A DNA stretch of 63,999 nucleotides, the filler included, from Kipferlia bialata (Eukaryota), in the NCBI GenBank assembly GCA_003568945.1. It is 5 parts of 5 records of this genome, joined end to end, with 100 filler letters (N's around TTAATTAATTAA, not from the genome) between each part and the next. Parts side by side here need not be neighbours in the genome. Positions count along the whole stretch, not along the records: positions 1 to 16,024 come from BDIP01000641.1; 4 more parts are not named here. One strand, 5' to 3'. Under the pieces are notes generated by a model, which saw only the letters and a program-made list of their open reading frames with translations, was not told where the DNA came from and made no database searches. The position numbers and the translations under genes were made by a program. The first letter of the stretch is position 1, and the number at the start of each line of letters is the position of its first letter. This document shows, piece after piece, positions 7,689 to 15,557 of this stretch.

Positions 7689-9411
7689 ATGCATACCCTA
7701 TCTGTATGCCTTGCACTGGCATGTGTCCTTGCATGCTGTGTGTGTGCATTCAACGATGCCGGACCATGCATACACGCACTGGCTGATGGGGAGTTGAAGA
7801 AGGTACGGGGATACTGGTATACCTGCCTATGTGTCTTCCAATCTCTACCCCCCCCCCCCACCGCTCCCCTCCACCCCTCTCCATACGCCAGTACGTCAAT
7901 ACATCATTATGTGTCTCGATCATATTATATAGGGGATGACCATTGAGTTCCAACGAACACAGTCCTCCATCCATCTCTCTCCCCTCTCTCTGTCCATCTC
8001 TCTCTTTCCCCCTCTCTCTCTCGGCGCTACAGTCATTGTCTCTTTCACTCTTCCGGTCTATGTTTCTCTCTCCTTCCCTCTCCATACGTATACTTACCCC
8101 ACTACCTCATCCCCAGGGTGATTCCTCTGCTCTCTCTCTACTGAATATGTATTCATACATATCTATGTCTCTCTCTTACCCTTCAGGGCGATACCGTCAT
8201 TGTCAACCCCGATGGGACTTATATATATACATATATATACTGTATCAGTGTATACACTGCATATGCATACTTATACACCCGTCACTCCAGGGCGATGCTG
8301 TCATTGTCAACCCAGACGGGACAGTGTCCAGTGTGCAGGTATGAGTGTACACATATATATTCATTGTGTATATATGTGTATATGTATACTGTATATATAT
8401 GTGTGTGTGTGTACTGTATATATATGCGTGTGTGTACATACGCATAGTGCAGGTATTCTGTATTCATGTATGTATGTATACATATATGTATATATGTGTA
8501 TATATATGTGTATATATGTATATATATTCATACATATATGTATATATGTGTATATATATACATATTCATACAAATATGTATATATGTGTATATATATGTA
8601 TTATATATGTATTATATATATTATATATATTATATATATTATATATTCATGTATATATATGCAGAGCCCATATGTGTACTGATCACTTTGAATGTGTAGA
8701 TATAGCTCTGGCTACACAGATGGGACAGTGTCCAGTGCGTATGAGTGTATAGGATGTCACATTGAATGCGACATTCTCTCTGTATAAATATAGTATATAT
8801 ATACATACTCAATATCATTCTGACCCCCAGGGCTCTGACCCAGGTCATATTCTCTCTCTCTCTCTCTCTCGGTGTATATACTTACTATACCATATACACT
8901 ATAGTTCTTAAACTATATACAACAGGCTGACCCCCAGGGCTCTGACCCAGGATATGACTCTGTCGAGACAGACATCAAGCCAAAGACAAAGTGAGATACA
9001 TACATATGTATACACATACATCTATATATATACAGACATACACACACACACATATATATGTTTGTGCTGTAGAGCATGTGTGTATATCTATGTACGATGA
9101 ATCTGTGGAGACATCAGGCCTAAGACAAAGTGAGGGATACGTATACTACATATAGAGGTATACTACATATATCATATATATTCTAAATACTGTATCAACC
9201 TATACACTGTATATAGTGTATAATAGACTCTATCTCCACCCCCAGGGCTGGTTTCACCTCTGCCTATGTATAGAGAGAGAGGGATGTATTCATATAGTGG
9301 ATGTTGTTACATACTGTACTACGTACCATAAGGTTCTTCTGTATTCTCACCCCCAGGGCTGGTTCGACCTCTGCCTACCACTTCAACGCAGCGTACTCAG
9401 AGGTAGTATTA

Positions 9412-9455
<44 letters not shown>

Positions 9456-12400
9456 TCAACAAGTGTACTGTTGTATGTAGATCATTGACACTATTCACTC
9501 TGCCTTCCACTTCAACGCAGCGTACTCAGGGGTATCAATGTATATAGAGAATCAATGTGTAAGGATATAGGGATATGATTACATGCTAGTATTCCTCCCA
9601 TACTCTCATATCCCTGTGTCATTTCTCCTCTGTGTATGTAATGCTGGTCTTCTTCGGCCGAGCTGTTCATTCAGCCCAGCTATCTCCCTCTGGGTGTCTC
9701 TCTCACCCCTTCTCTCACACAATAGTGCCTTGACATGCACGTGGTCACCTTCTACGATGGGTCATACTCTCTCTCTCTCTCTCTATATATATACGTGTAT
9801 ACATGAGACTGTATATACCCTTACCCTCAGTGTCTAGACATGCATGTTGTGACCTTCTACGATGGATCATACACAGAGGCATTCATGATTAACAGCACTA
9901 GTCCAATAGGTATGGAGAGAGCAATATGAGTGTAAGGATAGAGAGAGAGAGAGAGAGAGAGAGATGGGTCATACCCTGAGGCATTCATGATTAACAGCAC
10001 CAGTCCTATAGGTACAGAGATAGTAATATAACTGTAAATATAGAGGAAAAGGGGGTATATATATGTATATCGGGAGGGAGAGAGGGAGAGATGGGTCATA
10101 CACGTAGGTGCTCATGACGCACAGTACCAGTCCAATAGTTCCAGAGAGATGTTGTGTATTTCTATGTTTCCTCCCACTCATTCACTCTCTGTTCCTCTCT
10201 CTCTTACCCTTAGAATGGTAGCCTTCTACCATATCCTCCCCCGTGGATAGAGACATCAGCTCTCTCTCTCTCTCTCTCTACACCCATACACATATATGTA
10301 TTAGTATTCATGTATACCCATCTTATCATCAGAGTGGTATACCCCCACCATATCCTCCCCAGTTGATAGGGACATCAGCACTCTGACAGTGGTGCCCAAC
10401 AGTGCAGAGTTCATACTGGCCTATTGCAGTGACTTTTCCACAAGGTTTGTATAAGTATAGATTCACCCAATCCCTCCTGACATGAAGATACGATACAATA
10501 TACATTAATATATATATAGTGTATATCTGTAGTGTATATATGTGATACGCAGTTCAGAGTTCACACTCGCATACTGCAGTGACTTCTCTTCAAGGTCATA
10601 CGCACGCACCCACACTCACGGTGTAGCAATGTTCATTCTCACTATCTCTCTCTCTACCCATATATTTATGTGCCTCTGACGCTAACAACCACTGTTCTGA
10701 CCAGTGGCTGCTCTCTATCTCTCTCTCTTTCTCTCTCTATGTAATTACTGTAATATACTTACTCCAGCAACCACTGTGCCGCCACTGTGCTCACCACTGG
10801 CTACACACACGATGTATACCACAGTGCCCAGACATTCTTTGGGGATGAGGTACCTACTCTCTCTCTCTCTCTCTATATATATATACACACACACACATAT
10901 ATATATATGTATGCATATACAATTTGTATGTACATAAATGTGTGTGTGTATACACTGGCTACTTCCTTGATGAATACTACAGTGCTTTTACATTCTATGG
11001 TGAGATGAGGGGTGTATATTTATTCGTGTGTATATAGCTAGATAATGAGTGTGTATTTGATTCCCAACCGCAGAACGTCCCCGTGTACTCCCTGTCCTCC
11101 TGCTCTCTCTCTCTCTCTCTCTAAATGTATGAATATATTATGGTGTACATTAGTCTAACCCTTTAGAACGTCCCAGTCTACTCCCTGTCATCATGCTCTG
11201 ACACGTACTCAGACACCAATCCATTGGCATACACGGGTATACAGACATAGATATATACAGATATATAGTTGCATATATAGTATATAGTATATATATGTAT
11301 GTGAGTATCTAAATACTGACCCACTGGCATACCCAATCATCTATGGTAATGAAATGGATAGTAGCTAGTATACGATAGTATGTATACTGTATGAATGTAT
11401 ATCAGGACCCACTTGCATACGCAGAGTGCACCCTCAATCGCATTACACTCGTTCTGTTTCCACATGATATTTTCACCAATTCTCTTTTCAGTCTTTTTAC
11501 TATGACACTCCCGTTATTCAAATTACAATCAGCCCTTATTCTAATAACCCAGTTGAGGGGTCTGAGCCTGGCCTGTACTCCATCCACGTGCTGACGTCTA
11601 GGGCCATGGTATGTATATATGATATATATGTATATATGTGTGTATGATATACATGTGATATATAAGTATGTATGTAATATGTTCTATATGAATACTAGGG
11701 CTGTGGTATGGCTGTTACACCTCTACTCAAACCCCGGACTACAATGTCTTCAGATGGTCTTCAGGTGTGCCACTACTCCCTGTCTCTCTATGTATCCATA
11801 TGTACACCGGTCTCACCCATAAGGGCCCTGATACCATTGAGTTTGGCTCCCGCTCTGTCATTGATGATTCCAGTTCTCTCTCTCTCTCTCATTGAGAGTC
11901 TCAATGTAATAATCAACTACAATACCACTAACCATAGGGTCCTGATACCATTGAGTTTGGGTCCCGCTCTGTCATCGATGATGCCACCCATGATGCAGAC
12001 TCAGTGCAGATATCAGTCACTAGTGATGGGTATGTATAGTATAGTATATAGTGTATATTATATGTATGTATATATATATTTTTATATGTGGGTCATCGAT
12101 GATGCCACCCATGACCCCCAGACAGTGCAGATAACAGTTAGTGCAGATGGGTATGTAATACATGAATATATCTATATTACAGTAAATACAATAGTAGTGC
12201 TATGTCTCTATAGTGATGCTACCCATGACCCCCAGACGGCGCAGATAGGGGTGATGGATGACCGGTATTTGTATAGTATACTCTATATATATTTACATTC
12301 AATATTTGAGAAGCAAACACCCATCAAGCTAACCCAGCACTCTCTGTGTGTCCTTCATTGACACAGATGGCTATGCTGGGGTGGTCATTGGGGAAGGTAT

Positions 12401-15400: not shown

Positions 15401-15555
15401 GAGTATATCACAGATCTATACTAACGATAGGTACTGCGTGACTGAGAGTGGCGACCTGTCAGTCATCAGTGACGACACATACACGGGTGACAGGGACAGT
15501 CTGTGTGTGGAGACAGGCAGGGCCATCACATCCAACCAGATGCTGATCACACTGT

Positions 15556-15557
<2 letters not shown>
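7689..15557 (+). CDS. About 22-exon gene for a secreted/surface protein with an N-terminal signal peptide; resembles marine-phage virion/structural proteins
   Basis: Exon 1 (7689-7802) MHTLSVCLALACVLACCVCA-FNDAGPCIHALADGELKK; exon 2 (8291-8338) GDAVIVNPDGTVSSVQ. Final exons 14373-14488, 14811-14849, 15145-15215 and 15431-15557 give ...HESTNLTKSNLVGMADGNYSHGQLVTVNTIGATNDGQWALTAGERYCVTESGDLSVISDD...TGRAITSNQMLITL*. Gene structure is well supported; the phage resemblance is recalled, not searched. Confidence 0.7.
8346..8660. repeat. Degenerate (TA)n/(TG)n intronic microsatellite, representative of intron filler throughout the window
   Basis: About 300 nt of tatatatg-type repeats; similar (TA)n, (TC)n, (GA)n and poly-C tracts occur in nearly every intron. 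Confidence 0.9.

What the first reader, a model, noticed from the sequence alone, without database searches (positions are those of the whole stretch)
7689..15557. Phage-virion-like protein apparently domesticated as a secreted, 22-exon eukaryotic gene
The N-terminus (ALADGELKKGDAVIVNPDGTVSSV), an internal TIEFGSRSVI motif and the C-terminus (STNLTKSNLVGMADGNYSHGQLVTVNTIGATNDGQWALTAGERYCVTESGDL...GRAITSNQMLI) parallel an architecture I recall from marine phage hypothetical/structural proteins (A.G.L..GD.VIVNSDGTVS...SISFGTPVVF repeats...STNLT..N.IGI....Y..G.TAT....G..DD.QSGLTAG..YYVQ.DG.L...G.A.S...L.V), i.e. a split capsid-decoration-like domain around a propeller-like insert. Here it has a signal peptide, extra Cys and about 21 introns, which points to an old transfer repurposed for the cell surface or secretion.
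Basis: partly seen in the sequence, partly recalled or inferred. Interest (0 to 1): 0.75.

Follow-up and report, generated by a model that had tools for sequence, protein, structure and literature searches.

The report
Phage protein domesticated by a protist
A free-living, bacteria-eating protist carries a spliced 21-exon gene whose protein is related to an unstudied family of marine phage proteins; it likely came from a phage, likely gained its export signal and all 20 introns afterwards, and is predicted to work as a secreted surface-binding protein.

Summary
Largely confirmed, with corrections. The gene is Kipferlia bialata KIPB_003376 (530 aa). It has 21 exons, not 22: a spliced contig from a run guessed to be RNA skips the candidate exon 11699-11764 and shows 4 of 20 junctions. 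A profile of 91 phage proteins, built without it, aligns residues 28-528 (70.9 bits; best of 500 shuffles 6.7). The two ends carry the signal (24.7 and 40.7 bits); the 386-aa insert, modelled as a beta-propeller, is only marginally similar in sequence. Relatives with both ends lie in phage virion modules, often among tail genes and in tandem triplets, so 'capsid decoration' is not shown. None of 312 has a signal-like N-terminus. Exon-end copies in the introns differ mostly at silent sites (pN/pS 0.17), pointing to selection on the protein. Best reading: a phage appendage gene turned into a secreted adhesin-like protein; function untested. A wider eukaryotic family is not excluded, because the full HMMER search could not be run. 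The scan noted a similar case (a phage-type fibre gene in another protist) on other DNA.

The parts
7689..15557 (+). Whole gene, 21 exons, 1593 nt coding, 530 aa (public model KIPB_003376 = P0001)
7689..7748 (+). Predicted signal peptide, about aa 1-20 (cleavage site judged by eye)
   Evidence: hydropathy; absent from 312 phage-type relatives; in-frame stop at 7677-7679
7689..7802 (+). Exon 1 (aa 1-38): signal and start of the N half of the split domain
8291..8338 (+). Exon 2 (aa 39-54): rest of the N half of the split domain
8938..8990 (+). Exon 3 (propeller insert begins near aa 58)
9357..9402 (+). Exon 4
9831..9909 (+). Exon 5
10333..10444 (+). Exon 6
10768..10849 (+). Exon 7
11167..11236 (+). 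Exon 8
11553..11608 (+). Exon 9; its 3' end is joined directly to 11938 in the contig of run X2
   Evidence: table 7
11699..11764 (+).
11938..12029 (+).
   Evidence: covered and spliced
12338..12396 (+). Exon 11
   Evidence: joint skipping 308 nt, GT..AG
12527..12570 (+). Exon 12
   Evidence: joint skipping 130 nt, GT..AG
12883..12931 (+). Exon 13
   Evidence: loose end equals its start
13019..13116 (+). Exon 14 (Cys 306, 316, 319; poorly modelled part)
13477..13553 (+). Exon 15
13728..13774 (+). Exon 16
13970..14083 (+). Exon 17
14373..14488 (+). Exon 18: end of the propeller, start of the C half of the split domain (aa 444)
14811..14849 (+). Exon 19 (C half of the split domain)
15145..15215 (+). 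Exon 20 (C half of the split domain)
15431..15557 (+). Exon 21, last exon with stop; the protein ends with the last strand of the domain, no membrane anchor or ER-retention motif
8187..15634 (+). 28 partial 'echo' copies of exon ends in the introns and just after the stop (acceptor plus exon start upstream; exon end plus donor downstream), e.g. 8187-8218, 9726-9767, 9963-10011, 11824-11872, 14170-14209, 15587-15634
   Evidence: 24 of 43 exon-flank pairs against 4 of 820 controls

Best explanation
This is a spliced Kipferlia nuclear gene whose two ends are homologous to an uncharacterised family of marine phage virion-module proteins; it was likely acquired whole from a tailed phage or prophage, likely gained its signal peptide, extra cysteines and 20 introns after transfer, and is predicted to be a secreted or food-vacuole beta-propeller that would bind surfaces, most likely those of bacteria. 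Shown: gene structure, splicing of 4 of 20 junctions, homology of both ends, phage context of relatives. Predicted: the two ends fold together as one small cement-like domain from which a propeller of about seven blades projects. Inferred: route (a phagotroph eats phage-infected bacteria), export through the ER, disulfides and N-glycans, and a non-enzymatic adhesin or lectin role carried over from the phage appendage. My odds by step: phage-family origin of the split domain 0.9; whole gene transferred 0.75; secreted or luminal 0.75; binds bacterial surfaces 0.35-0.4. The confidence below is for origin, domestication and secretion with a binding role of some kind.
For: Profile of 91 phage proteins without P0001: aa 28-528 aligned, 70.9 bits, best of 500 shuffles 6.7; N and C halves each above all 1000 shuffles; up to 43% identity over 109 columns of the split domain. 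ESM Atlas, using its own model: feature score 0.95 and TM 0.66-0.74 over nearly the whole length, all listed clusters viral. AlphaFold2 with the phage alignment: pLDDT 72.7, pTM 0.71, highest at about aa 31-50 and 451-500; residues 56-448 match solved propellers (Z 27.5, rmsd 3.3, 318 aligned); best viral-library hits E 3e-21 to 1e-12, rank 3 being the Lentibacter phage ICBM2 protein. Insert size 386 against 255-408, median 362, at the same position. Family abundant in viral contigs (377 of 393 pattern matches) and rare in cells: 10 loci from a scan of 185,579 genomes, of which the 6 with the phage architecture lie beside phage head or tail genes and 4 are propeller-only; 3 of 401 genomes of one phylum, being the seed prophage and two propeller-only hits; none in plasmids. 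20 of 22 loci whose selected neighbours I checked have a virion gene nearby; 46 of 76 loci hold three copies; one prophage member shares a 114-aa N-terminal region (79%) with a neighbour matching tail fibre assembly. Host gene: GT..AG introns removed in a 2235-nt contig; echo-versus-exon differences 53 silent, 29 replacing, pN/pS 0.17.
Against: The insert alone is not clearly homologous in sequence, though one phage member's insert also escapes the profile (L012). The AlphaFold model used the phage alignment, so searches are not independent of it; the single-sequence model failed (pLDDT 34) and aa 281-344 stay under pLDDT 50 in parts. Direct searches with P0001 found no phage hit in the large protein set and one at E 0.02 in GenBank phages. 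The tree has 109 columns, a midpoint root and P0001 on the longest terminal branch. No phage member has a tested function or is shown to be in the virion. The best fold matches include enzymes and WD40 proteins as well as lectins. Run X2 is only guessed to be RNA, and 616 nt at the 5' end of its contig are unexplained. Other eukaryotes were searched only by a word-based method and among large Atlas clusters.
Confidence: 0.6

Rival explanations
1. Same phage origin, but the propeller is an enzyme (glycoside hydrolase or lyase type) that would digest bacterial envelopes in the food vacuole.
For: Fold matches include sialidases, a rhamnose-glucuronate lyase and an ulvan lyase; phage tail appendages often carry depolymerases (recalled).
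Against: No Asp-box or RIP motif in P0001 and no Asp-box in 91 of 91 phage relatives; invariant columns of the family are Gly, and most lie in the split domain; matches are generic, at most 13% identity.
Confidence: 0.13
2. The gene reached Kipferlia from a bacterial or archaeal cell that had already turned it into an exported surface protein.
For: Propeller-only relatives occur in non-phage settings in archaeal and candidate-phylum genomes (L079, L081, L083, L084), one with a hydrophobic N-terminus (2.24).
Against: None of these four has either half of the split domain; none of 312 proteins with both halves has a signal-like N-terminus (maximum 1.97 against 2.93). Pattern scans miss divergent members.
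Confidence: 0.1
3. Only the small split domain is phage-derived; the propeller came from elsewhere (host or another donor).
For: Insert similarity is marginal or absent in sequence tests.
Against: It would need a second propeller of the same size at the same insertion point; whole-length Atlas matches are all viral clusters; weak signal exists for aa 70-174; phage inserts also diverge beyond recognition.
Confidence: 0.08
4. The hydrophobic N-terminus is an internal membrane anchor, because exon 1 is spliced at an acceptor-like site at 7680 to exons further upstream.
For: A pyrimidine-rich TAG precedes 7680, in frame with the ATG; the X2 contig has 616 nt more at its 5' end than the coding exons explain.
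Against: The upstream gene has its own stop near 7146 (read by eye); 7147-7688 has few microsatellites (0.02, among the lowest against introns 0.02-0.38) and no echo of exon 1; the public model starts at 7689.
Confidence: 0.06
5. An old, wider eukaryotic family that current searches miss, or a captured gene without a function.
For: The exhaustive representative search was not obtained; only one eukaryote is known to hold it.
Against: Hundreds of phage members against one eukaryote; P0001 nests among phage sequences (FastTree support 0.93 for the enclosing clades of 43 and 53 of 103); intact frame over 21 exons, splicing and pN/pS 0.17 argue against decay.
Confidence: 0.03

Closest known systems
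Uncharacterised marine phage family: split cement-like domain around a propeller, e.g. Lentibacter phage ICBM2 vBLenPICBM2__49 (AYP28108.1), P0005, L041:2173-3747
   Same: Both halves homologous, same insert position and size, same predicted fold. ICBM2 gene lies between annotated tail assembly chaperone genes, in the variable tail-fibre region described in PMC6775973 (passages read).
   Different: Signal-like N-terminus, 11 mature Cys, 20 introns, eukaryotic host; insert diverged to the edge of detection; single full copy known rather than tandem triplets.
Phage cement protein, Pfam PF09956 (Phage_cement_2)
   Same: 3 of 15 relatives match it (best E 3.2e-6); 18% of the top Atlas cluster carry it; nearest named cluster for aa 440-530 (score 0.84).
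   Different: P0001 itself has no hit; the domain is split by a 386-aa insert; relatives are often in tail rather than head modules; capsid binding and trimer formation are not shown.
MYRF, with a phage tailspike chaperone (ICA) domain
   Same: A phage tail-appendage domain working in a eukaryotic protein (PMC3742443, PMC8326128; search listing and start of abstract only).
   Different: MYRF uses one domain inside a membrane-bound transcription factor; here an apparently whole phage gene of another fold has only gained a leader.
cdtB and aip56 captured by insects from APSE phages or their hosts
   Same: Phage-associated genes domesticated in eukaryotes, with introns gained (PMC10120054; passages read). 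Phage-related enzymes in secreted fungal proteins are also reported (10.64898/2026.06.07.730663; passages).
   Different: Those are toxin cargo or enzyme genes; this one comes from virion modules and has 20 introns.
Seven-bladed propeller proteins: Photorhabdus lectin PLL (5c9o), BP39L (6gxr), YncE (3vgz), CylK (7ron)
   Same: Fold of aa 56-448: Z 23.9 (rmsd 3.0, 300 aligned), 22.9, 24.6, 27.5.
   Different: 9% identity; no sequence-level link (profile E 0.39 to PLL2); none has the split domain; a shared fold shows no function.
Amphioxus 'mirage' duplications of exon-intron boundaries
   Same: Tandem partial copies spanning 5' or 3' splice sites that do not disturb splicing (PMC3087553; passages); here the transcript ignores the echoes in the stretch laid.
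   Different: Here they affect most exons and all five contigs of the window, and differ from the exon mostly at silent sites.

Membership tests
Marine phage split-domain/propeller family | N half of the split domain near the N-terminus | tested here: met
   aa 30-56, 24.7 bits, 0 of 1000 shuffles as high
Marine phage split-domain/propeller family | C half of the split domain at the C-terminus | tested here: met
   aa 445-528, 40.7 bits, 0 of 1000 shuffles; 39% over 98 aa to L041
Marine phage split-domain/propeller family | Propeller insert of about 360 aa between the halves | tested here: met
   386 aa, range 255-408; propeller fold
Marine phage split-domain/propeller family | 52-aa blade repeat recognisable in sequence | tested here: inconclusive
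   Repeat period seen in the family profile; P0001 scores -0.6 bits (444 of 1000 shuffles) or 8.5 (17 of 1000) on a blade profile
Phage cement proteins (PF09956) | Pfam hit at or above the curated cut-off | tested here: not met
   No PF09956 hit at E<=1 for P0001; 3 of 15 relatives hit
Phage cement proteins (PF09956) | Single uninterrupted domain of about 100 aa | tested here: not met
   Halves separated by 386 aa; model length 103
Phage cement proteins (PF09956) | Same fold as solved cement proteins | tested here: inconclusive
   Fold searches were filled by the propeller; the split domain was barely tested (note)
Phage cement proteins (PF09956) | Trimer bound on the capsid surface (feature recalled) | not testable with these tools
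   The full-length trimer exceeds the size limit of the complex tool; no capsid exists in the host
Sialidase-type propeller enzymes | Asp-boxes and RIP motif (features recalled) | tested here: not met
   None in P0001
PLL/PHL-type propeller lectins | Seven-bladed propeller fold | tested here: met
   Z 23.9 to 5c9o, tied with non-lectins
PLL/PHL-type propeller lectins | Sequence kinship and sugar-binding pockets | tested here: inconclusive
   Profile E 0.39; pockets not examined
Domesticated horizontally acquired gene | In a host contig with spliced spliceosomal introns | tested here: met
   16,024-nt contig; intron-rich neighbour
Domesticated horizontally acquired gene | Purifying selection | tested here: met
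   Indirect: pN/pS 0.17 between exons and 25 ungapped echo copies; no orthologue available
Domesticated horizontally acquired gene | Nested in the donor group on a rooted tree; absent from most eukaryotes | tested here: inconclusive
   Nested under midpoint rooting, short alignment, long branch; eukaryote sampling limited

The most novel reading that the evidence does not exclude
A bacteria-eating protist has taken a phage host-binding appendage gene whole and uses it as its own secreted prey-recognition or agglutination protein, and the 20 introns it gained since show large-scale intron gain in the Kipferlia line, against the view that its intron richness is simply ancestral.
Probability: 0.3. 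Interest if true: 0.85.

Novelty: new variant of a known kind. Interest (0 to 1): 0.66.

Why it matters
Phage-to-eukaryote transfers in the papers I saw involve toxins, enzymes or one chaperone domain; this one is an apparently whole virion-module gene rerouted for export in a predator of bacteria, which suggests a way for protists to borrow phage surface recognition. It gives a eukaryotic handle on a very common but unnamed marine phage family. It also bears on intron evolution: PMC5874029 favours ancestral intron richness in Kipferlia with loss in parasites while noting the alternative; a phage-derived gene with 20 introns in 1.6 kb must have gained them after transfer, if the origin is right (the date is unknown). 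The silent-site-biased exon-end echoes are a separate, window-wide puzzle.

Tried and rejected
Single exons against Pfam and PHROGs: nothing useful (12 exons). P0001 against Pfam, PHROGs, NCBIfam and PDB sequences: only weak hits (phrog_690 E 0.21). P0001 directly against viral contigs and the large protein set: no phage hit; the family was reached through one E 0.02 hit. Single-sequence fold: unusable. Trimer prediction of aa 440-530: no answer (score 0.04, alignment not used); it counts neither way. The exhaustive representative search never ran, so the eukaryotic range stays open. The apparent strong insert hits came from switching off composition correction and did not survive controls. 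PF09956 search in five genomes gave no stand-alone outgroup. No holder on record as RNA was listed, and DNA run X1 laid no contig on the stretch tried; neither is evidence. Only 911 of the gene's 7869 bases were laid with reads. Contamination rejected: introns are spliced out. Assembly artefact for the echoes judged unlikely because copies are cut mid-exon and diverged, but not tested on raw reads. Literature searches listed no paper on this gene or family; I saw listings only for most, and no supplements.
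Full report
Gene structure. Reading 6500-16500 and scoring acceptors gave a + strand model from 7689 to 15557 with all introns GT..AG and no internal stop; with the candidate exon 11699-11764 it has 22 exons and 552 aa. A search with the last exon returned the public protein P0001, Kipferlia bialata KIPB_003376, 530 aa, on a 16,024-nt contig, which equals the model without that exon. On 11690-12600, one 2235-nt contig of run X2 (guessed RNA) covers only exons 10-12, skips 308 and 130 nt at GT..AG ends, and its loose ends match the end of exon 9 and the start of exon 13. 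So 4 of 20 junctions are seen and the extra exon is skipped. The contig's 959 nt from exon 10 onward equal the modelled 933 nt plus 26, ending in the GA repeat after the stop, which fits the rest of the 3' model indirectly; 616 nt at its 5' end are unexplained. X2 holds 0.15 of the gene's sampled words, close to the 0.13 expected of the spliced message.

Homology. P0001 has no good Pfam, PHROG, NCBIfam or PDB sequence hit, and the word-based protein search found only Kipferlia (2 of 7992 candidates). The ESM Atlas gave feature scores of 0.95 and, with its own model, TM 0.66-0.74 over nearly the full length, all listed clusters viral. One tblastn hit in GenBank phages (E 0.02) led to P0005 and to viral loci (12; 377 of 393 pattern matches, 68 loci kept). 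From 715 ORFs, 192 matched, 121 were full-length single-domain members and 91 remained below 85% identity; their profile, built without P0001, aligns aa 28-528 at 70.9 bits against a best of 6.7 among 500 shuffles. Split into parts, the N half scores 24.7 bits and the C half 40.7 (0 of 1000 shuffles each), but the insert -5.1 (749 of 1000). Further tests left the insert marginal: 14 of 1000 shuffles as high, or 0 of 1000 without composition correction; best BLAST 27.2 bits against 258 inserts with 3 of 100 shuffles higher. Its size (386; range 255-408) and position fit the family, and one phage member's insert also escapes the profile. The split domain reaches 43% identity over 109 columns (median 31%) and nests among 102 phage-type sequences under midpoint rooting, on the longest terminal branch; a second tree agreed on nesting but gave no supports.

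Structure. With the phage alignment AlphaFold2 gave pLDDT 72.7 and pTM 0.71, best in the two halves and weak at aa 281-344. Residues 56-448 match solved propellers (CylK Z 27.5, rmsd 3.3, 318 aligned; YncE 24.6; lectin PLL 23.9); Foldseek's PDB hits are generic propellers at E about 2e-6, whereas the top five viral hits run from E 3e-21 to 1e-12, rank 3 being the ICBM2 protein and the other four unnamed. These three searches depend on the phage alignment; the Atlas result does not. The family profile has a 52-aa period seven times, so about seven blades is inferred. The cement link rests on relatives: 3 of 15 hit PF09956. No Asp-box or RIP motif is present.

Where the relatives live. 20 of the 22 loci whose selected neighbours I checked have a virion gene nearby, often tail tube, tape measure, central fibre or fibre chaperone genes, sometimes head genes; 46 of 76 loci hold three copies (loci overlap in part). 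ICBM2 gp49 lies between tail assembly chaperone genes, in the region PMC6775973 describes as the variable tail-fibre end (passages). In prokaryote genomes a pattern scan gave 10 loci (11 of 354 matches): six with the phage architecture in phage gene clusters (one cut by the contig end) and four propeller-only proteins in cellular settings that lack both halves. A profile search of 401 genomes of one phylum found the seed prophage and two weak propeller-only hits; plasmids none. 'Virion appendage, probably host-binding' is therefore my inference for the family, and 'capsid decoration' is possible but not shown.

Domestication. The homology starts right after a hydrophobic leader that none of 312 relatives with both halves has; there is no C-terminal anchor or ER-retention motif; the mature part has 11 Cys against 0-6 and 4 N-glycosylation sequons (not more than phage members have by chance, mean 7). 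The introns hold 28 partial copies of exon ends (24 of 43 exon-flank pairs against 4 of 820 controls). For the 25 ungapped copies (3 gapped ones left out) differences are 53 silent and 29 replacing, pS 0.28, pN 0.048, which indicates selection on the protein. All 20 introns would postdate the transfer. PMC5874029 (parts 1-2 of 6 and passages read) reports 124,912 introns in 17,389 genes, favours ancestral richness, and does not mention phage or duplications in its main text.

Verdict. Exon number and the capsid label need correcting, the insert's ancestry is likely but not shown in sequence, the range among eukaryotes is untested by a sensitive search, and the binding role is inference. Searches (Kipferlia with transfer, intron or phage) listed no paper on this gene or family; supplements were not read.

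Noticed in passing
window 8187-15634 and all five contigs of the window: Most introns carry degenerate copies of neighbouring exon ends with their splice site (acceptor plus exon start upstream, exon end plus donor downstream): 221 local repeat pairs in the window, 194 ungapped, on all five contigs. It resembles amphioxus 'mirages' but looks genome-wide; not mentioned in the parts of the genome paper I read.
   Followed up: partly
window 8187-15634: Echo copies differ from their exons mostly at silent sites (53 of 82; a copy dead from birth predicts 38-44%; p 1e-6 to 1e-4), as if copied from a diverged working allele or paralogue. Outside this gene mismatches also favour one codon phase (123 of 208, null 108 +/- 4). 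Unexplained.
   Followed up: partly
P0002 (another Kipferlia contig, 6243 nt); compare window 15163-15215, 15431-15557 and 15587-15634: A Kipferlia protein annotated as TRAPP II subunit Trs65 ends in a 92% identical copy of the last 60 aa of this gene; its last residues match the echo after the stop rather than the exon. Either a partial second copy merged by gene prediction or a real fusion.
   Followed up: partly
window 7073-7688: The spliced contig has 616 nt more at its 5' end than the coding exons; if unspliced it would reach into the last exon of the upstream gene. An acceptor-like site lies at 7680.
   Followed up: partly
window about 480-7146: An unidentified intron-rich + strand gene with the same echo pattern (up to five copies per exon, e.g. 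2622-3095) lies directly upstream.
   Followed up: no
window 16025-16124, 32141-32240, 48211-48310, 56609-56708: N runs with a 12-nt all-frame-stop linker: the window is five joined contigs, so neighbours beyond 16024 are not real neighbours.
   Followed up: yes
L082:4194-11243; L003:2164-4767; L012:3616-7098: The phage family builds long proteins by repeating the module (four in 2350 aa) or, as read from the sequences, by putting a second propeller into the C half (about 860-880 aa); a modular, unnamed and very common marine phage family without its own Pfam, PHROG or NCBIfam model.
   Followed up: partly
L079:7743-9167, L081:4046-7147, L083:2783-5428, L084:7842-9680: The same blade repeat, without the split domain, occurs in cellular proteins of archaeal and candidate-phylum genomes, some probably exported.
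   Followed up: partly
L077, L078, L080, L082 (genome contigs): Contigs made of phage structural genes are filed inside bacterial and archaeal MAGs; they may be misbinned phage rather than prophage.
   Followed up: no
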